Shown here: piece after piece, positions 9,803 through 18,814 of the stretch
Layout: every line of letters starts with the position of its first letter
Position numbering within the stretch: position 1 is the first letter of the stretch
DNA from: a virus
Taxonomy: Duplodnaviria; Heunggongvirae; Uroviricota; Caudoviricetes
Direction: 5' to 3' (one strand)
DNA: 31,427 nt
IMG/VR virus record: IMGVR_UViG_3300005805_000054
Location: 1 to 31,427 of that record
The notes under the pieces: model-generated
What the model was told of the DNA's origin: nothing
What the model saw: the letters and a program-made list of their open reading frames with translations, nothing else
The model's database searches: none
Position numbers and translations under genes: made by a program

Positions 9803-10188
9803 GCCAAACAACAACATTAGTATTGTTGCCACAAACAACATGGAACGGTAATGTTTCCAACGTACAGATATATGATGTTGTTGGTTTAAAGAACCCAGCC
9901 GCTTCATACTATGTTGGTAGCAAAGACTTACAAACCATCAACGTTAATCAAGTTGGATTGACTGGCAACATAATCGTCCAAGCAACATTAGCAACACTTC
10001 CTGAAACCACTGATTGGTTTCAAGTTTATAAACTAGAAGCTAATGCAGGCGCGCCAGCAAACACTACACCTAATTTTAATTCTTCCATCAACGAAGCTGT
10101 TAATATTGAAGGAAACTTTGTATGGATGAGAGCTATAATACAAGACTTCAATGGTGGCATATTACAATACGTTAAGCTATCGTATTAA
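9799..10188 (+). CDS. Hypothetical beta-rich protein, possibly virion-associated
   Basis: ORF track; N/T/V/G-rich composition. Confidence 0.65.
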   Translation: MSQTTTLVLLPQTTWNGNVSNVQIYDVVGLKNPAASYYVGSKDLQTINVNQVGLTGNIIVQATLATLPETTDWFQVYKLEANAGAPANTTPNFNSSINEAVNIEGNFVWMRAIIQDFNGGILQYVKLSY

Positions 10189-10848
10189 TTTACAATTTTG
10201 TCCATGCCATCTAGCATAAGTTCCGGGATTTGCTAATTTACCGCAATGTTCGCACTTATGGTTGCTTGCATGGATTTTTCTATATTTGTCAGTTAACTCT
10301 GCTGATCTGTTAGAATGAAACTCACTTGCGGCTAATCGCTTTTCTACTGGTACAAATTGACCCTTATTTGCCTCTCGTATCTTATCAGTTGAGTTTGATG
10401 AATGTTTTTTGCCGGTCATTCCTGATGTTTTCCCACGTTTTACAATAGCATTATCATATATTTTTCTTACATTTGGATCATGCATAGGATTATTATTTTT
10501 CATCCTTATGGAATGTGTTTTTGAAAATTGTTCTCTTAATGAAGAATATTGTCTAGCATTTAATTTTTTTCTTGTTTGGTTATTATTTTCTAAGTTAGCC
10601 ATAGACCAAGCGGCACTAATCATTTTTGATTTGAATTTGCCCTCTGTCATTCTAACTAATAAAAGATGACAAATTAAATGCTCCCTACCAGTTAACCACA
10701 CTAAATTGTCAACAGAATTGGTTCCACCTAAACTTTTGGGTATAATATGATGTCGTTCTTTATATACTTCTTTGGGTAAAATTCTATTTCTAGAGTTATC
10801 TATTATACGATAATAGATGGAAGTATACTTGTTGTTGATAAATATCAT
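10177..10848 (-). CDS. Free-standing HNH homing endonuclease with NUMOD3-like motif and C-terminal CCHC finger
   Basis: ERHHIIPKSLGGTNSVDNLVWLTGREHLICH; GMTGKKHSSNSTDKIREAN; CEHC-x12-H-x3-C tail. Confidence 0.85.
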   Translation of the reverse strand: MIFINNKYTSIYYRIIDNSRNRILPKEVYKERHHIIPKSLGGTNSVDNLVWLTGREHLICHLLLVRMTEGKFKSKMISAAWSMANLENNNQTRKKLNARQYSSLREQFSKTHSIRMKNNNPMHDPNVRKIYDNAIVKRGKTSGMTGKKHSSNSTDKIREANKGQFVPVEKRLAASEFHSNRSAELTDKYRKIHASNHKCEHCGKLANPGTYARWHGQNCKLIR

Positions 10849-10915: not shown

Positions 10916-10934
10916 AAATTTTACTAAATACTAT

Positions 10935-12452
10935 ATGAGTAAACAAATTGTAATTATTCCGGGGGGCTTCCATCCCTACCACGCAGGCCATTATGCTTTA
11001 TATCAGTCAGCCCGCAAAGCATTCCCTGATGCTGATTTATATGTTGCGGCAACAAACAGTCAAGAGACACGACCTTTTCCTTTTGCAGTAAAAGAAAAAC
11101 TAGCAAAAGTTGCTGGCGTTGCTCCTGGTCATTTTGTTCAAGTTAAGAGTCCTTTCCAAGCTAAAGAGATTACACAAAACTATGATCCAGAACAAGATAT
11201 ATTGATTTTTGTTCGTAGTGAGAAGGATCGCAATGAAAGTCCTAAGCCAGGTGGCATGAAGAAAGATGGTACACCTGCTTACTTCCAACCATATACTGGT
11301 AAAGACATGCAACCTTTTGCTAAACATGCATACTTTGCTTATCTACCAACAGTTGAGTTTGGTCCTGGTATTACAAGTGCGACAGAGATTCGCAATGCAT
11401 GGCCTAAGTTAGATGACCGTCGCAAGACAGCAATGGTTATGAGTTTGTATCCAGCGACACAAAAGAATCCTAAACTTGCCGCTAATGTTGTTAAGATGTT
11501 AGATATTGGTATGGGTGGACAAGAAAATGTGGCGAAGGACAATTTGGCAGAAGAACAAGTTACCGAATTGGATGTTAGCAAAACATTGAAATTTGCCACT
11601 AAGGCGCACAAAGGACAACAATACGGGGAGAAGCCATATATTACTCATCCAAGATCAGTTGCTGCCACAGGTAAGAAATTTTTTGGCGCAGCATTTACAC
11701 CAGATGCTATTAAAGTGGCATTACTACATGATGTCGTAGAAGATACTCCTTATAAGTTAAATCAGTTATCCAAGATGGGGTACACTCCGGAAGTTGTAGA
11801 AGCTGTACAATTGTTAACGAAGAATAAAGCATTGAGTTATGCAGACAACATCAAGGCAATTATTGCTAGTGATAATAAACTAGCAATGATGGTCAAGTAT
11901 GCCGACAACTATCAAAACTTTACAGGTGATAAGTCGTCTTGGGATCCTGAAAGAGTAGCACATAGTCAAAAGAAATATCTAGCAAGTTTAGATATGCTAG
12001 GAGACAAGTTAGGTATTAAACAACATCTAAGCCAACCTAAACAGCAAGGTGTGGCGGAAGGCAAACAAATTTGGGACGGTACAGATTGGGGACCACAAGG
12101 TAACTTTGCAGGTGACACTCCAGTTAATCTCGGTGGGCAACCAGTTAATAAACTTCAAGTCGGTGACATTGTAACTTACTTTGGACAAAAAGCAAGAATA
12201 GAGGCTATGTCTAAAACTGGTAATACTTCTCGCATCACTATTGCAAACAAAATGGGCGGCATTACCCAAGATGTACTCACACGTGATTTAAAACGTACAG
12301 GTATGTCAGAAGAAATTGGCAGAGCAGGTGGTGGTTTTGGCACAAACTATCCAGGCACTTACGAAGAAGAAAACGGCCCGTTTACCCATAAGGGCGGATT
12401 AAAACTTACATCTCTTACTACAGAGAGCGTAGATTACTTAGACGAAAAATAA
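10935..12452 (+). CDS. Multi-module protein: HIGH-type cytidylyltransferase-like domain, RelA/SpoT-type HD hydrolase domain and small C-terminal modules
   Basis: PGGFHPYHAGH; AHKGQQYGEKPYITHP..VA...ALLHDVVEDT...KYADN; QGVAEG repeat at 12045. Likely start 10935 after CTAAATA. Confidence 0.8.
   Translation: MSKQIVIIPGGFHPYHAGHYALYQSARKAFPDADLYVAATNSQETRPFPFAVKEKLAKVAGVAPGHFVQVKSPFQAKEITQNYDPEQDILIFVRSEKDRNESPKPGGMKKDGTPAYFQPYTGKDMQPFAKHAYFAYLPTVEFGPGITSATEIRNAWPKLDDRRKTAMVMSLYPATQKNPKLAANVVKMLDIGMGGQENVAKDNLAEEQVTELDVSKTLKFATKAHKGQQYGEKPYITHPRSVAATGKKFFGAAFTPDAIKVALLHDVVEDTPYKLNQLSKMGYTPEVVEAVQLLTKNKALSYADNIKAIIASDNKLAMMVKYADNYQNFTGDKSSWDPERVAHSQKKYLASLDMLGDKLGIKQHLSQPKQQGVAEGKQIWDGTDWGPQGNFAGDTPVNLGGQPVNKLQVGDIVTYFGQKARIEAMSKTGNTSRITIANKMGGITQDVLTRDLKRTGMSEEIGRAGGGFGTNYPGTYEEENGPFTHKGGLKLTSLTTESVDYLDEK
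12045..12062 (+). repeat. Outlying copy of the QGVAEG repeat
   Basis: CAAGGTGTGGCGGAAGGC, identical to the array consensus. Confidence 0.9.
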
Positions 12453-14560: not shown

Positions 14561-14604
14561 TAATGTAGTATTTTGATAAATACTAGATAACTTTGGAATT
14601 CGCT

Positions 14605-15567
14605 ATGAAAATTAATCAAATCGTACAAGAAACTACTACTTCAGGGTCAGTTGCCCCAGTAGAACATGGTTTCGTCAAAATGCAGTCTCGCAGTCCTAGT
14701 GTTTATGGAAACACAAAAGCAGGATCATTATTCAAGGGTAAGAAAACTAATAAGCCATACGGTAACAGTCTCAACGAAGGTGCAATGAAGCAACTATCAA
14801 TGGACTTAAAAGGTGGTGCAGATGGACTATCCGATCAAGAATTTCAAAAGAAATACAAGATGAGTAAGCAAGCTGCCCGTCAAGAGTTAGCTTCCAACAG
14901 AAAACAATCTAAACCAGAACCAGTACAAGAGGCTAGATTAGAAGAAGATGATATAATTCAAATGCCCGGTAGAGGTTCTAAACGCAAAACTGGATTTGTA
15001 CCAAAAGGTCAAAGTCGGGTAGACCATGAAGTTGAAATGGCTCGTAGTGATGTATTGGCAACAATGAAAAACGCAAAAGCAATTTATCAATTACTACAAA
15101 ACCGCGGTGAAGATGAGGGTCTTGAAGGATGGGTACAAGAAAAATTAATCAAAGCAAATGACTATCTAAATGCTGTCAAAGAATACTATGACGAAAAAAT
15201 GATGGAACAGGGCGCCGGTGTTATTGCTGCAGGCGGCGTAGGTGAAGGTAGAGCCACATACGGCCCAGTCACCGATGCACACAAAGCCTCTTCAAAGAAA
15301 GTGTTTTCAGCTGGGGTAAAAGATGGCAAAGCTGGTGCAGAGAAAAACAAACAACACATGGCCAATGCATTGATGAAAACAACTTATCTCAATGGGTACA
15401 AACAGGGTGAGAAAAGTGTGGCGGAAGGAGCTAAAGTAGATAGAATGGTTAAGCACATTGCCAAATCAGAACGTAAGCTAGGCAAAAGCAAAGACGAAGC
15501 CGAAAACATCGCCTGGGCAACTGCTAACAAGCGTGGCATGTTAGACAACAAGAACAAGAAAGCGTGA
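14605..15567 (+). CDS. Modular hypothetical protein (hydrophobic-x-E delimited segments), possibly virion-internal
   Basis: Starts MKINQIVQE; segments end in LNE, VQE, MME, VGE and SVAE; repeat variant AGTGTGGCGGAAGGA at 15415-15429. Confidence 0.7.
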   Translation: MKINQIVQETTTSGSVAPVEHGFVKMQSRSPSVYGNTKAGSLFKGKKTNKPYGNSLNEGAMKQLSMDLKGGADGLSDQEFQKKYKMSKQAARQELASNRKQSKPEPVQEARLEEDDIIQMPGRGSKRKTGFVPKGQSRVDHEVEMARSDVLATMKNAKAIYQLLQNRGEDEGLEGWVQEKLIKANDYLNAVKEYYDEKMMEQGAGVIAAGGVGEGRATYGPVTDAHKASSKKVFSAGVKDGKAGAEKNKQHMANALMKTTYLNGYKQGEKSVAEGAKVDRMVKHIAKSERKLGKSKDEAENIAWATANKRGMLDNKNKKA

Positions 15568-15568
15568 T

Positions 15569-18500
15569 ATGAGCAATATTCTAAAAGGTTTACAACTAAA
15601 CGAATTATCTAATAAGAAGTTAGGTGACTATAAAACAGCCGCAGGTGCTGATGCTACTGCCGCTGACAAGGCAGGTGACTATAAGCGCGGTGATAAGCGT
15701 ATGAGCGGTATCATCAAAGCAACTAAAAAAGAATTTGCTAATGATGAGAAGAAAAAAGATGTGACAGAGAGTGTTGCAGAAACTTTACCAATGGATGATG
15801 CTATGAAAGTATTGCGTCAATATGGGGCAGATCACTTCAAAACAACCAGCAACGAATTGCATTTTTATAAAAACGGCAGACCACTAAGTGTTGACCTAAT
15901 TTGGGGCAACGAGGGCGAAAGAAGTGTGAATTTGAGCCAGTTAAATTCAGCTACTCGTCAACTAAAAGGGCAAGGTGTGGCGGAAGCAGGCATGCCATTT
16001 CGTGGAGTAGGTGGAGCATTTAACCGCGGTGATGACGAGCGTCACGATCTAGATCCATCTGAGTGGTACATTGTTAAAGATGGTAAGATGTACAAAACAT
16101 CTGTATACCCTAATCAAGTACAACAAGCAATAGCACAAGGTTATAGTCGTAGTAGAGAAGAAGCTAAAGCTAAAGCAGATCGTCAAGGTGTAGCGGAAGG
16201 CTCTGACAATCAAGAAATTGGCCAACAAATGGCCAATGATGGAGTCACTTATAGCCCAGCAAAAGAAAATGAAATTATTAACTTAATGGCTCAATATATG
16301 CAAAAGGCAGGTATGAGTTCAAAACAAATTCGTTATCTATTGAGCTACGATGAGGATTATGTTGGCGATCAATTAAGTTTCTTGCCTAGGCAAAAGGTGA
16401 CAGAGGATCAACTAGATGAATTGAAATGCTGGTCAGGGTATCATAGAGTTGCCGGTACAAAAGCAGGCTTTCCGGGTAGTTGTGCAAAAAATAAAACAAA
16501 TGAAGAAGGTGTGGCGGAAGGCTCCGAAGAAGATATGAGTAAAGAAGTCAAGGCAATGGCCACAGGTACCTGCCCACATTGCCATGGTCCTGTAAAGAAA
16601 AAAGAACACCCAACGCTAACACAATATCATTGTGCTAAATGCGGTATACGGGGAAGTATTGACAAGCAAGGTGTGGCGGAAGGCTCCAGTGATACTGTCT
16701 ATCCCAACGCAGAAGTAATCAAGTCAAAAAATGGCAAGCCAGTAGGCGAAATTTATCAAGACGGTAATAGTTGGGGTGCTTTTCACTATCGTGCAGACCG
16801 TGGATATGATTTAATCGACAGTAGAGAAGATGCCATAGAAGCACTCCGAGACCTACATCAAGAAACAGGTCGTAGTCGTCCAGACTATACTATCAAAGGT
16901 GTGGCGGAAGCAACAGGCGATGAAAAATTTGATAAAATGATTAAGGGTATCACCGGTAAAAAAGCAGTAGCTAAACAACAAAAAATAGATACAAAGCAAC
17001 AGGCACGTGATGCGTTTGGTGGTATGTTTGGTGGAGGTAATCCTGCTGATAAACTTGGCATTAGAAAGAAAGGTGTGGCGGAAATGGACAAATCACAAAC
17101 TCCTCCAGGCCGTGATGGCAGCAACGATCCCGACGCCGGCAAAAAAGAATACACTGCAAAAGTAACTACACCTGAAAAAATAGCCAAACATGGCAAAGAG
17201 ATTCTAAACAAAGTGTTAAACAAAAAGCAAGGTGTGGCGGAGGCTACAGGCGATGCAAAATTTGATACTATGATGGGCAATATAGCAAAACCGTCAGCCG
17301 TAAAAGCACTCGGTAGAGAAGAAAAGGTTTATGAACTAATAAGGAAATACTTCTGGCACAAGCGCAGAGCAGACCTGGGTTCAGCAGTAACAAGTGAACA
17401 CGGACATGATCGCATGGTACAGAAAGTATTGATGGCCCTAAAGAAAATGAATGTAGATTTATCTACCATGGACCCATCAAAACTAAAAGCGATCAAAGGC
17501 GAAGTATACGAGCAAGGTGTAGCGGAAGGCTCCAAAGAAGATATGAGTAAAGAAGTCAAGGCAATGGCCACAGGCACTTGCCCACATTGCCATGGTCCTG
17601 TAAAGAAAAAAGAACACCCAACGCTGACACAATATCACTGCCCTAAATGCGGTATAAGAGCAAGTCAAGACAAGCAAGGTGTGGCGGAAGGCTCCACCTT
17701 TCCCGGTCCACTTAGTGGTCGTGAATGGTCAAAAGTTGGTAGACAAATAAAGTCATCTCAGGGTCGTGATAGCAGTGTTACAAGTCCACATCAACGAAAA
17801 GATTGGTACAATCCAAAAGATCCAAGAAGTAGCAAACAGCAAAAATTGGACTATTTAAAATCTATGAAGGCAAAACAAGGTGTGGCGGAAGAACAACATA
17901 GTTGCCCACATTGCGGCGGCGAGATGGTTAGTGAAGAACTAATGAACGAAAAGAAAGATGCTTGCTACTATAAAGTTAAGAGCCGTTATAAAGTATGGCC
18001 AAGTGCTTATGCCAGTGGTGCATTAGTTAAGTGCCGTAAGAGTGGAGCAGATAGTTGGGGCGATGGCGGCAAGAAGAATGAAAGTTCTATACTAGAAGGC
18101 ATTGAACAAGTAGACGAGAACTTACACAAGTGGTTCAAAGAGAAGTGGGTTCGTTTTGGTCCTGATGGTAAGATTCGCGGCGACTGTGCTAGAGGTGATG
18201 ACAGTGAAGGTAAACCAAAGTGTTTGCCACAAAGTAAAGCACAGAACTTAGGTAAAGAAGGTCGTGCAAGTGCAGCCGCAAGAAAGCGTAGAGAAGATCC
18301 TAATCCAGAACGTAGTGGTAAGGCTATCAATGTTAACACTAAAAAGAAATCTAACGAAGGTGTGGCGGAAGGCTTGGATAAACCCAGAGAAGCAGGTAAA
18401 GCAATACAGAGTTTGAAAAATCTTGCAATTATGAAGTCTGCTCTTACGATGCAACAGTTATCTCAGGCAGGAAGAGAATCTATTGTTACCAATGCAATCA

Positions 18501-18814
18501 ATGCAGCCAAAACACTAGAACAGTCTTACATGGCAAACAAGCAACAAGGTAATGCCATATTTGTAAGAGCATTAAGGGACGAAATTGATAATTTCAGAAG
18601 AGGTGCTCCAATCAATGCATCTTTCCCTGAATCTGACAATGCGTCCGAGTTGGGTGATTTATTGCAAGGAAAATTAAGTAAGATTAATTTTCAGCAAGAT
18701 ATGGCGGAAGCACAGTTAGACGAAAAGTGGTCAACAAAATACAAAGACAGTATCAACTGTAGTAATCCTAAAGGCTTTAGTCAAAAAGCACATTGTCAAG
18801 GAAAAAACAAATGA
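15569..18814 (+). CDS. 1081-aa GVAE-repeat modular polyprotein-like protein
   Basis: 11 GVAE plus 1 DMAE junctions separating unrelated modules, including Zn-ribbon and Cys-containing modules. Confidence 0.85.
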   Translation: MSNILKGLQLNELSNKKLGDYKTAAGADATAADKAGDYKRGDKRMSGIIKATKKEFANDEKKKDVTESVAETLPMDDAMKVLRQYGADHFKTTSNELHFYKNGRPLSVDLIWGNEGERSVNLSQLNSATRQLKGQGVAEAGMPFRGVGGAFNRGDDERHDLDPSEWYIVKDGKMYKTSVYPNQVQQAIAQGYSRSREEAKAKADRQGVAEGSDNQEIGQQMANDGVTYSPAKENEIINLMAQYMQKAGMSSKQIRYLLSYDEDYVGDQLSFLPRQKVTEDQLDELKCWSGYHRVAGTKAGFPGSCAKNKTNEEGVAEGSEEDMSKEVKAMATGTCPHCHGPVKKKEHPTLTQYHCAKCGIRGSIDKQGVAEGSSDTVYPNAEVIKSKNGKPVGEIYQDGNSWGAFHYRADRGYDLIDSREDAIEALRDLHQETGRSRPDYTIKGVAEATGDEKFDKMIKGITGKKAVAKQQKIDTKQQARDAFGGMFGGGNPADKLGIRKKGVAEMDKSQTPPGRDGSNDPDAGKKEYTAKVTTPEKIAKHGKEILNKVLNKKQGVAEATGDAKFDTMMGNIAKPSAVKALGREEKVYELIRKYFWHKRRADLGSAVTSEHGHDRMVQKVLMALKKMNVDLSTMDPSKLKAIKGEVYEQGVAEGSKEDMSKEVKAMATGTCPHCHGPVKKKEHPTLTQYHCPKCGIRASQDKQGVAEGSTFPGPLSGREWSKVGRQIKSSQGRDSSVTSPHQRKDWYNPKDPRSSKQQKLDYLKSMKAKQGVAEEQHSCPHCGGEMVSEELMNEKKDACYYKVKSRYKVWPSAYASGALVKCRKSGADSWGDGGKKNESSILEGIEQVDENLHKWFKEKWVRFGPDGKIRGDCARGDDSEGKPKCLPQSKAQNLGKEGRASAAARKRREDPNPERSGKAINVNTKKKSNEGVAEGLDKPREAGKAIQSLKNLAIMKSALTMQQLSQAGRESIVTNAINAAKTLEQSYMANKQQGNAIFVRALRDEIDNFRRGAPINASFPESDNASELGDLLQGKLSKINFQQDMAEAQLDEKWSTKYKDSINCSNPKGFSQKAHCQGKNK
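15971..18712 (+). repeat. Interspersed in-frame 18-bp direct repeat array (consensus CAAGGTGTGGCGGAAGGC)
   Basis: Copies begin at 15971, 16184, 16505, 16667, 16895, 17069, 17228, 17513, 17675, 17876, 18356 and 18695; unit lengths 213, 321, 162, 228, 174, 159, 285, 162, 201, 480 and 339 bp. Confidence 0.92.

What the first reader, a model, noticed from the sequence alone, without database searches (positions are those of the whole stretch)
11526..12062. An alarmone-hydrolase-type HD domain carried as a repeat-bounded cassette inside a cytidylyltransferase-like gene
Seen: after the HIGH-type domain comes a degenerate repeat (AATGTGGCG-AAGG, 11526-11538), then LAEEQVTE, then a ~150-aa domain with AH.GQ.Y...PYITHP..VA and LHDVVEDT, closed by a perfect QGVAEG copy at 12045. 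Established: these motifs mark the RelA/SpoT HD family, including small alarmone hydrolases (Mesh1/SAH), and alarmone-synthesising toxSAS modules act in anti-phage defence. Inference: the cassette system has captured an enzyme that could be released by proteolysis and degrade (p)ppGpp/(p)ppApp or a related nucleotide early in infection.
Basis: partly seen in the sequence, partly recalled or inferred. Interest (0 to 1): 0.7.

Follow-up and report, generated by a model that had tools for sequence, protein, structure and literature searches.

The report
Swappable alarmone-hydrolase module in phage gene
A gene of an uncultured giant lake phage carries a complete alarmone-hydrolase-type enzyme domain as a plug-in module that related phages lack, replace or keep in other genes; it is bounded by short linkers that look like capsid-protease cutting sites, so it may be delivered into the host as a counter-defence enzyme, but cutting and activity are untested.

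Summary
The gene at 10935-12452 encodes a constant N-terminal HIGH-type nucleotidyltransferase, an HD domain, and a constant C-terminal beta-barrel plus tail. Two linkers bound the HD domain: a decayed copy (11526-11538) and a perfect copy (12045-12062) of the GVAEG joint.

Related phages lack exactly this segment, hold an unrelated module there, or carry the same HD cassette in other genes. It is 88.7% identical in DNA in one gene and 96% identical in protein in another. Homology breaks at the joints.

The HD domain has all RelA/SpoT-type catalytic residues. Its nearest solved structure is Aph1, a (p)ppApp hydrolase. Aph1's specificity signature is mostly absent, so the substrate base is open.

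The linkers are predicted disordered and keep a [V/L/M]-x-Glu pattern even where the DNA differs. The closest complete relatives encode a T4-type prohead protease. Proteolytic release is therefore plausible but unproven. The canonical upstream site is mutated (VAK), and some relatives have stand-alone HD genes.

This scan has reported the same joint system on other genes of this genome, and an HD cassette of this kind in another genome. I class this as a new variant of known kinds: phage alarmone hydrolases, T4 internal proteins and polyvalent proteins.

The parts
10935..12452 (+). Modular gene of 505 aa: nucleotidyltransferase, linker, HD cassette, joint, beta-barrel, tail.
   Evidence: ORF. 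The ATG at 10935 matches the start of the homologues. There are 3540 homologues with E<=1e-3 among 8000 scored candidates.
10924..10931 (+). CTAAATAC box, 3 nt before the ATG. It resembles a T4 late-promoter-type element.
   Evidence: ATAAATAC followed by 3-4 nt and an ATG also precedes ORFs 3254 (PHROG 'virion structural protein'), 13589 and 20031, and three more ORFs elsewhere in the record. A promoter function is inferred only.
10935..11519 (+). Constant N-terminal HIGH-superfamily nucleotidyltransferase, aa 1-195. Motif FHPYHAGH lies at 10968-10991 and ITSATEIR at 11370-11393.
   Evidence: Pfam CTP_transf_like scores 22.5 bits, above the cut-off of 21. It is 53-97% identical across relatives whatever follows it. 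The nearest folds are NaMN adenylyltransferases, weakly, with target-normalised TM 0.43-0.50. The substrate is unknown.
11520..11567 (+). Left linker, aa 196-211, holding three joint-like elements: the decayed joint AATGTGGCGAAGG (11526-11538, NVAKD), NLAEE (11541-11555) and QVTE (11556-11567).
   Evidence: pLDDT is below 50 for aa 195-212. Nucleotide homology to L068 and L069 ends at 11537/11538. V209 and E211 are invariant in alignment A1. P0121 has the same GVAKDNLAEEQVDEL leader in another gene.
11565..12061 (+). Mobile DNA unit: the HD cassette together with its 3' joint.
   Evidence: It is 88.7% identical over 497 nt to L078:5955-6451, which lies inside an otherwise unrelated carrier gene.
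11568..12029 (+). RelA/SpoT-type HD pyrophosphohydrolase domain, aa 212-365. Catalytic residues are H225, H238, H265-D266 (11727-11732), E269-D270, D324 and N328.
   Evidence: PHROG 990 'metal-dependent phosphohydrolase' at 6.7e-36. Aph1 (7SMG) is the best match by sequence (1.6e-8) and by fold (target-normalised TM 0.77-0.84). The family profile gives 3.6e-19. pLDDT is 73-93.
12045..12062 (+). Right joint CAAGGTGTGGCGGAAGGC, encoding QGVAEG (aa 371-376).
   Evidence: It is a member of the 14-copy repeat family. Sequence after it differs between P0121, P0122, P0123 and the query. A contig of run X2 switches to another 310-nt module exactly after 12062. pLDDT is below 50 for aa 366-375.
12144..12302 (+). 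Constant small beta-barrel, aa about 404-456.
   Evidence: Four strands with pLDDT around 80. It is highly conserved in alignment A2. It is present in 56 of the 120 best homologues, the query's own entry included.
12303..12449 (+). An M-S-E-E site (VAEE or MAEE in relatives), followed by a conserved but disordered tail that ends TESVDYLDEK.
   Evidence: Alignment A2. pLDDT is below 50. A DY[LIMVA][DEA]E end is present in 36 of 59 IMG/VR relatives of any architecture.

Best explanation
The interval is a mobile protein-coding cassette. It encodes a catalytically intact RelA/SpoT-type HD pyrophosphohydrolase of the Aph1/small-alarmone-hydrolase kind. It is plugged between the constant N-terminal nucleotidyltransferase and the constant C-terminal beta-barrel and tail of a modular gene of a freshwater jumbo phage.

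The bounding linkers have the peptide form [V/L/M]-x-E-(G) and the canonical DNA form GGTGTGGCGGAAGG. They do two things:
- Shown: they are the places where related phages exchange modules within and between genes.
- Inferred: they are cutting sites for the T4-type prohead protease that the closest complete relatives encode.

On this reading the precursor is cut into separate modules, the HD among them. The modules are probably cut inside the capsid and delivered with the DNA.

Also inferred: the free HD enzyme removes the 3'-pyrophosphate from (p)ppApp, (p)ppGpp or pyrophosphorylated tRNA. This would blunt the stringent response or toxSAS-type abortive infection.

Step confidences: cassette mobility about 0.95; alarmone-type hydrolase activity about 0.65; proteolytic release about 0.45.
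For: Cassette mobility:
- L068 is 95.1% identical in DNA up to 11537 and 89.1% identical from 12087 on, but holds an unrelated 608-nt module in between.
- L069 has the N and C parts separated by 13 nt where the window has 547 nt.
- L078 shares only 11565-12061, at 88.7% identity, inside another gene.
- P0121 carries the cassette at 96% protein identity in an 892-aa protein with no N domain. That gene lies two genes downstream of its own phage's 633-aa nucleotidyltransferase gene.
- A contig from an independent study changes module exactly after 12062.
- Of the 120 best homologues, 71 have no HD and only the query combines N, HD-A and C.

Enzyme identity:
- All metal and catalytic motifs are present and conserved across the cassette family.
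- The best sequence and fold matches are Aph1, Mesh1, PaSAH and the Rel hydrolase domains.

Protease sites:
- Both linkers are predicted disordered.
- A [V/L/M]-x-E motif follows the N domain in 50 of the 58 complete IMG/VR relatives when P1' is limited to G, A, S, D, E, N, L or Y. It is present in 7 of the other 8 with other P1' residues or spacing, whatever the DNA or the next module.
- The same pattern precedes the HD in every carrier examined: VNE, VDE, INE, LNE, VTE.
- The relatives with 91% and 85% DNA-polymerase identity encode an S77 prohead protease, a gp22-like scaffold, and a gp23 capsid protein with LLAE-S near its N-terminus.
- T4 gp21 trims head proteins, including Alt at both ends (PMC5694885).
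Against: - There are no virion proteomics and no enzyme assay.
- The 95-kb record itself holds no protease gene, though it is only 28% complete.
- One complete relative at 63% DNA-polymerase identity, G004, gave no S77 or gp23 match.
- The protein starts directly with the Rossmann strand, so there is no T4-style N-terminal capsid-targeting sequence.
- The canonical upstream joint reads VAK, not VAE.
- Relatives G002 and G004 carry stand-alone HD_4 genes, so the function does not need packaging.
- The HD_4 Pfam score of 20.3 is below the gathering score of 27.2.
- Only K133 and Y134 of Aph1's six signature residues are kept.
- HD domains of two types sit next to the N domain in 34 of the 120 homologues, the query included, which could mean functional coupling rather than free cargo.
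Confidence: 0.55

Rival explanations
1. The protein is never cut. It works in the infected cell as one multidomain enzyme. The linkers are only flexible spacers whose conserved DNA serves recombination.
For: - The joint is conserved at silent positions. GTG-GCG is used in nearly all copies, although these codons make up 14% and 9% of their families. Selection on a peptide alone does not explain that.
- There is no N-terminal targeting sequence.
- No protease gene is found in the own fragment.
- Stand-alone HD genes in relatives show that a cytoplasmic role is sufficient.
Against: - The [V/L/M]-x-E pattern persists after the N domain and before the HD in relatives whose linker DNA is quite different: VDEN, LDEG, VSEG, LNEM, VNE, INE. 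This points to selection on the peptide.
- The pattern matches the specificity of the T4-type protease encoded by the closest complete relatives.
- The model shows no packing between the N and HD domains (pTM 0.46, disordered linker).
Confidence: 0.3
2. The nucleotidyltransferase and the HD domain form a functional pair acting on one nucleotide metabolite, with one making and the other trimming it. The HD would then be a partner domain, not exchangeable cargo.
For: - Two different HD types (Aph1-like and SpoT/Mesh1-like) occupy the slot directly after the N domain in 9 and 25 of the 120 best homologues.
- A distant N-domain relative, P0128, also carries the HD.
Against: - That sample was drawn with a query that contains the HD. 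In the sample drawn with the N domain alone, only 4 of 59 loci have an HD.
- A near-identical phage, L068, replaces the HD with an unrelated module.
- The same cassette also sits behind a dCMP-deaminase domain and in proteins without any N domain.
- N-only proteins of about 180-250 aa are common.
Confidence: 0.1
3. The HD is a self-immunity enzyme against a (p)ppApp-synthetase toxin carried by the same phage. This would parallel Aph1, which protects against Apk2 in Bacteroides prophages.
For: Aph1, the closest solved relative, has exactly this role (PMC10083569).
Against: No RelA_SpoT synthetase domain (PF04607) was found in the own record or in four complete relatives. The own record is only 28% complete, so this is not conclusive.
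Confidence: 0.04

Closest known systems
Aph1, adenosine 3'-pyrophosphohydrolase 1 of Bacteroides caccae (PDB 7SMG; PMC10083569)
   Same: - It is the best match by sequence (1.6e-8), by family profile (3.6e-19) and by fold (target-normalised TM 0.77-0.84, 30% identity).
- It has the same compact size of about 150 aa.
- It shares the H, HD, ED and D/N catalytic motifs and the C-terminal K-Y pair.
   Different: - Four of the six Aph1 specificity residues differ in identity: D24 to Q, R96 to A, D116 to T, and R119 to K, which is a conservative change.
- The family profile scores the S. aureus Rel hydrolase domain equally, at 72.2 bits.
- Aph1 is a stand-alone immunity protein, whereas this domain is a module inside a larger precursor.
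T4 internal proteins IPI-III and Alt, loaded into the prohead and trimmed by gp21 (own knowledge; PMC5694885)
   Same: - Short hydrophobic-x-Glu sites lie in exposed segments.
- A gp21-type protease, a gp22-like scaffold and a gp23 capsid protein are encoded by the closest complete relatives.
- The idea of enzymes delivered with the DNA is shared.
   Different: - There is no N-terminal capsid-targeting sequence.
- Several modules share one chain.
- The site is also a conserved DNA joint where modules are swapped.
- Packaging and cutting are not shown.
Polyvalent proteins of phages and conjugative elements (Iyer et al. 2017, PMC5512222)
   Same: - It is a multidomain chain of conflict-related modules with mosaic architectures.
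- It is predicted to be processed into units and delivered at invasion.
   Different: - Polyvalent proteins are held to be processed by their own MPTase domain, and no peptidase domain is detected here.
- The RelA/SpoT domain reported in them is the synthetase, not the HD hydrolase.
[quoted passage not shown] 2021, PMC7824862)
   Same: - It has the same HD type.
- Only this region of the protein matches cultured phages, at 30-39% identity.
- The proposed counter-alarmone role is the same.
   Different: Those are separate small genes. Here the domain is a joint-bounded cassette inside a nucleotidyltransferase gene and inside other carrier genes.

Membership tests
RelA/SpoT-homologue (RSH) HD hydrolase domain (Pfam HD_4, small alarmone hydrolases) | Metal-binding H...HD...D residues plus the ED pair of HDxxED. 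| tested here: met
   H238, H265-D266, E269-D270, D324 and N328 are present and invariant or nearly invariant in the cassette family. They align to the same motifs of Aph1 and Rel.
RelA/SpoT-homologue (RSH) HD hydrolase domain (Pfam HD_4, small alarmone hydrolases) | Score above the curated Pfam HD_4 threshold. | tested here: not met
   The score is 20.3 bits against a cut-off of 27.2. The family profile nevertheless finds 23 RSH or SAH structures at E values from 3.6e-19 to 1.2e-7, and no other kind of protein.
RelA/SpoT-homologue (RSH) HD hydrolase domain (Pfam HD_4, small alarmone hydrolases) | The fold of the RSH hydrolase domain. | tested here: met
   The top 24 Foldseek matches are all Aph1, Mesh1, SAH, Rel or SpoT. 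Target-normalised TM reaches 0.84. The model's pLDDT is 73-93 over the domain.
RelA/SpoT-homologue (RSH) HD hydrolase domain (Pfam HD_4, small alarmone hydrolases) | Hydrolysis of a 3'-pyrophosphate from (p)ppGpp or (p)ppApp. | not testable with these tools
   This needs an enzyme assay.
Aph1-type (p)ppApp-specific hydrolases | Signature residues D24, R96, D116, R119, K133 and Y134 (PMC10083569). | tested here: not met
   In the HMMER alignment, K133 and Y134 are kept and R119 becomes K. D24 becomes Q, R96 becomes A, and D116 becomes T.
T4-type prohead-protease substrates (internal head proteins) | A hydrophobic-x-Glu site in an exposed segment. | tested here: met
   LAE, VTE, VAE and MSE lie in segments with pLDDT below 50. 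The pattern is conserved across relatives.
T4-type prohead-protease substrates (internal head proteins) | A cognate S77 (gp21-type) protease in the same genome. | tested here: inconclusive
   It is absent from the 95-kb record, which is 28% complete. It is present in relatives G001 and G002, with 91% and 85% DNA-polymerase identity, and in G003.
T4-type prohead-protease substrates (internal head proteins) | An N-terminal capsid-targeting sequence. | tested here: not met
   The protein starts directly with the first Rossmann strand and the HxGH motif, at aa 4-19.
T4-type prohead-protease substrates (internal head proteins) | Presence of processed fragments in virions. | not testable with these tools
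   The phage is uncultured and no proteome exists.
Polyvalent proteins (Iyer et al. 2017) | An MPTase or other own peptidase domain for processing. | tested here: not met
   No peptidase family appears in the Pfam, PHROG or NCBIfam scans of the protein.
HIGH-superfamily nucleotidyltransferases (Pfam CTP_transf_like) | HxGH and ISxTxxR-type motifs, and a score above the Pfam cut-off. | tested here: met
   FHPYHAGH and ITSATEIR are present, and the score is 22.5 bits against a cut-off of 21.

The most novel reading that the evidence does not exclude
The joints, together with a removable C-terminal tag, form a general cargo-loading system. The tag is a [V/L/I/M]-x-E-S site followed by x-DYL(D/E)EK, or the longer EKWS..KYK.SINC..GRKK end, which is shared with the window's 1081-aa polyprotein.

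On this reading, any domain recombined between two joints is carried into the prohead and cut free by the prohead protease. It is then injected with the DNA.

The HD module would therefore be a pre-made anti-alarmone or anti-toxSAS enzyme. It would act before any phage gene is expressed, and the phage population would shuffle such modules as a counter-defence toolkit.
Probability: 0.3. Interest if true: 0.8.

Novelty: new variant of a known kind. Interest (0 to 1): 0.58.

Why it matters
Alarmone-based systems are established anti-phage defences. Examples are the stringent response, toxSAS and CapRel toxins, and (p)ppApp toxins. Phage alarmone hydrolases are annotated but have been little studied.

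This locus shows such an enzyme being moved as a unit between carrier genes at a short joint that also looks like a capsid-protease site. If the modules are indeed packaged and cut, this would be a natural plug-in system for delivering counter-defence enzymes with the genome. It would extend the T4 internal-protein paradigm, and it would give a sequence rule (joint, module, joint, tag) for finding more such cargo in metagenomes.

It is directly testable with synthetic genes in laboratory strains.

Tried and rejected
- Megablast of the gene against cultured phages gave no match. tblastn matched only the HD part, so no cultured phage with this architecture was found.
- The searches for an S77 protease and gp23 in the own 95-kb record found nothing, but the record is a 28% fragment, so this says nothing.
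- RNA evidence is uninformative. One metatranscriptome contig covers 248 nt of the N domain only, and DNA carry-over cannot be excluded.
- Pfam on ten alternative middle modules named only one, a ParB_N domain. The other cassettes remain anonymous.
- The C-terminal part folded with low confidence, apart from a small beta-barrel, so I ran no fold search on it.
- NCBIfam added only weak spoT_relA and adenylyltransferase hits.
- I considered that the N domain is the phage's NMN adenylyltransferase. I set this aside because another PF01467 ORF lies about 2 kb upstream of the NAMPT gene elsewhere in the record, and because the N-domain gene occurs in relatives without NAMPT.
- A pure chance repeat was rejected.
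- No complex prediction was run for the C-terminal tag, because that binding claim is only speculative.
Full report
**Observation.** The gene runs from the ATG at 10935 to the stop at 12452 and encodes 505 aa.
- AATGTGGCGAAGG lies at 11526-11538 and reads N-V-A-K-D in frame.
- LAEEQVTE follows, then a domain with AHKGQQY, PYITHP, LLHDVVEDT and KYADNYQN.
- CAAGGTGTGGCGGAAGGC (QGVAEG) lies at 12045-12062.

The 14-nt core GGTGTGGCGGAAGG has 16 matches at up to 3 mismatches in the window, against 0.83 expected. Fourteen of them form an in-frame repeat family on the + strand: one in this gene, one in ORF 14593-15567 and twelve in the 1081-aa ORF 15569-18814. Six more lie in a minus-strand gene elsewhere in the same 95-kb virus record.

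The upstream copy is not a chance look-alike.
- It keeps the rare codon pair GTG-GCG. These codons make up 14% of Val and 9% of Ala codons in this genome.
- Close homologues read Q(E/Q)NVAEG at exactly this position.

**Anatomy.**
- Residues 1-195 are a HIGH-superfamily nucleotidyltransferase. It has the motifs FHPYHAGH and ITSATEIR and scores 22.5 bits on Pfam CTP_transf_like, above the cut-off.
- Residues 212-365 are the HD domain.
- Residues about 404-456 form a small beta-barrel.
- The last roughly 45 residues are strongly conserved yet predicted disordered, and end TESVDYLDEK.

In the AlphaFold model, the two segments that carry the joints (195-212 and 366-375) are the only internal stretches with pLDDT below 50. 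No packing between the N and HD domains is predicted (pTM 0.46).

**The HD segment is a cassette.** Protein searches found thousands of homologues in which the N domain is constant, at 50-97% identity, and what follows varies. Among the 120 best homologues the tallies are as follows.
- 71 have no HD.
- 16 have this HD type ("A"): 9 next to the N domain and 7 further downstream.
- 33 have a different, SpoT/Mesh1-like HD ("B").
- Only the query itself combines N, HD-A and the C-terminal domain.

That sample is biased, because the query contained the HD. In an independent sample of 59 IMG/VR loci found with the N domain alone, four loci carry an HD, all of type B, and gene length ranges from 231 to 1102 aa.

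The DNA evidence is sharper.
- A near-identical phage (L068) is 95.1% identical up to 11537 and 89.1% identical from 12087 on. It holds an unrelated 608-nt module in between.
- L069 has the N and C parts joined by a single QQNVAEG, with 13 nt where the window has 547 nt.
- L078, an otherwise unrelated 742-aa carrier gene, shares only 11565-12061, at 88.7% identity over 497 nt.
- P0121 holds the cassette at 96% protein identity, including the same GVAKDNLAEEQVDEL leader. It is an 892-aa protein with no N domain, and lies two genes after that phage's own 633-aa nucleotidyltransferase gene.
- A contig from a different study (run X2) matches 11897-12062 without a difference. It then continues with 310 other letters and rejoins at 12451. 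Other runs diverge after 11516 and after 12062.

Other carriers of the cassette include a dCMP-deaminase fusion and a distant N-domain relative.

**The joints.** Two layers of conservation are visible.
- At the DNA level, nearly all canonical copies use GTG-GCG, which codon usage would give about 1.3% of the time. The exact 14-mer recurs in four complete related genomes, with no matches to the reversed control. This fits recombination or gene conversion between joints.
- At the peptide level, a [V/L/M]-x-E motif follows the N domain in almost every one of the 59 loci, even where the DNA is quite different: VAEN, VDEN, VDES, LDEG, VSEG, LNEM.
- The same pattern precedes the HD in every carrier: VNE, VDE, INE, LNE, and VTE here.
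- It also precedes the C-terminal domain: VAEG, LEEG, VDEG, VSEG, VTEG.

The left linker of this gene looks like three stacked joint scars: NVAK-D, NLAE-E and QVTE-L.

**Protease context.** The own record is a 28% fragment and holds no head genes. The complete relatives with 91% and 85% DNA-polymerase identity (G001, G002), and a third relative, encode three T4-type head genes.
- An S77, T4 gp21-type prohead protease (E 1e-23 to 1e-28).
- A Glu-rich gp22-like scaffold.
- A gp23 capsid protein whose N-terminal region reads ...KKQLLAE-SSAG... .

To my knowledge, T4 gp21 cuts after Glu in (L/I)-x-E. It trims internal proteins and trims Alt at both ends (PMC5694885). Proteolytic release at the linkers is therefore a coherent inference, but nothing here shows it.

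**Enzyme identity.**
- Only the HD part matches cultured phages, at 30-39% identity, to genes annotated as metal-dependent phosphohydrolase or small alarmone hydrolase.
- Among solved structures, the best match by sequence is Aph1, the (p)ppApp hydrolase of a Bacteroides prophage (7SMG, 1.6e-8). SpoT, Rel, Mesh1 and SAH follow.
- A profile of the cassette family scores Aph1 and the S. aureus Rel hydrolase domain equally, at 72.2 bits.
- By fold, Aph1 is first (target-normalised TM 0.77-0.84), followed by Mesh1, PaSAH and Rel.
- All catalytic residues are present.
- Of Aph1's six specificity residues (PMC10083569), only K133 and Y134 are kept and R119 becomes K. D24, R96 and D116 are replaced. 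The Arg pair that stacks on guanine in Rel is also absent.

I therefore call it an alarmone-type 3'-pyrophosphohydrolase of unresolved base specificity, not a member of the Aph1 family.

**Mechanism and rivals.**

*Most likely reading.* The gene is a modular precursor. Its HD module is exchangeable cargo (shown), is released at hydrophobic-x-Glu linkers by the prohead protease (inferred, about 0.45), and degrades pyrophosphorylated nucleotides or tRNA ends to blunt alarmone-based host responses (inferred, about 0.65).

*Main rival.* The chain stays whole and the joints serve only as spacers and recombination sites.
- For it: the silent-site conservation, the missing N-terminal targeting sequence, and the stand-alone HD_4 genes in relatives G002 and G004.
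- Against it: the peptide pattern persists where the DNA differs.

*Second rival.* The nucleotidyltransferase and the HD are a functional pair. The frequent adjacency of two HD types hints at this. The replacement in L068 and the many other carriers argue against it.

*Third rival.* The HD gives self-immunity against a phage-borne (p)ppApp synthetase. This finds no support, because no RelA_SpoT synthetase domain was found in five records.

**Comparison and novelty.**
- Phage alarmone-type HD enzymes are already annotated, including in jumbo phages (PMC7824862).
- Head proteins trimmed by gp21 and polyvalent injected proteins are also known (PMC5694885; PMC5512222).
- What is new here is the combination: an enzyme module of this kind moving between carrier genes at a joint conserved in both DNA and peptide, inside a gene whose two ends are constant.
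- This scan has already described the joint system on two other genes of this genome, and an HD cassette of the same kind in another genome. Those notes were leads, and I re-tested the points used here.

**An added observation.**
- 36 of the 59 relatives end in DY[LIMVA][DEA]E, whatever precedes. In many of them a [V/L/I/M]-x-E-[S/N] motif comes just before it.
- 10 of the 59 end in EKWS..KYK.SINC..GRKK, which is also the end of the window's 1081-aa polyprotein.
- A conserved, disordered, possibly removable C-terminal tag is a candidate targeting signal.
- That is the basis of the novel case.

Noticed in passing
window 12420-12449; window 18700-18811; loci L009-L067: Carrier genes share C-terminal tags whatever module precedes. 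36 of 59 nucleotidyltransferase-gene relatives end in DY[LIMVA][DEA]E, many with a [V/L/I/M]-x-E-[S/N] motif just before it. 10 of 59 end in EKWS..KYK.SINC..P.GFSQ.AHC.GRKK, which is also the C-terminus of the window's 1081-aa polyprotein. This may be a targeting signal.
   Followed up: partly
window 3242, 10924, 13578, 20019; G000:C1 62047, 72315, 54839(-): An (A/C)TAAATAC box lies 3-4 nt before the ATG of several genes, including this one and a PHROG 'virion structural protein' gene. It resembles the T4 late promoter TATAAATA, and its placement would give nearly leaderless mRNAs.
   Followed up: partly
window 10177-10848 (-): The HNH-type endonuclease gene directly upstream is absent from L069. 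There, the flanking ORF (window 9958-10189) is followed after 3 nt by the nucleotidyltransferase gene. The endonuclease gene is present in L068. This looks like a mobile homing-endonuclease insertion.
   Followed up: partly
P0044, P0085-P0120 (homologues); loci L011-L014: A second, SpoT/Mesh1-like HD type (AHAGQTRxGGxPYxxHP...LLHDTVEDT...KLADRLDN) occupies the same slot after the N domain in many relatives. It is preceded by G-G-Q-V-D/E-E-G/S.
   Followed up: partly
L078:5001-5950 (protein P0122; also P0123): Another carrier of the HD cassette begins with a region holding a HIGH-like GWGRGMGHKGHMFLA motif that Pfam does not recognise. It may be a second nucleotidyltransferase-type head domain.
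   Followed up: no
G000:C1:86921-88318 and about 84.8 kb (outside the window): A NAMPT-like gene (PF04095, 5.5e-58) lies about 2 kb downstream of a 345-aa open frame matching PF01467. This suggests an NAD salvage pair that is separate from the gene studied here.
   Followed up: partly
G002:C1:34029-34202; G004:C1:84492-84875: Complete relatives carry stand-alone HD_4 genes of 161 and 172 aa. The same enzyme type therefore exists both as a free gene and as a cassette in this phage group.
   Followed up: no
window 12062-12451 (run X2, record 5): A contig from another study has the identical 3' end of the HD and the joint. It then has 310 other letters in place of the 388-nt C-terminal domain, and rejoins at the stop-codon region.
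   Followed up: partly
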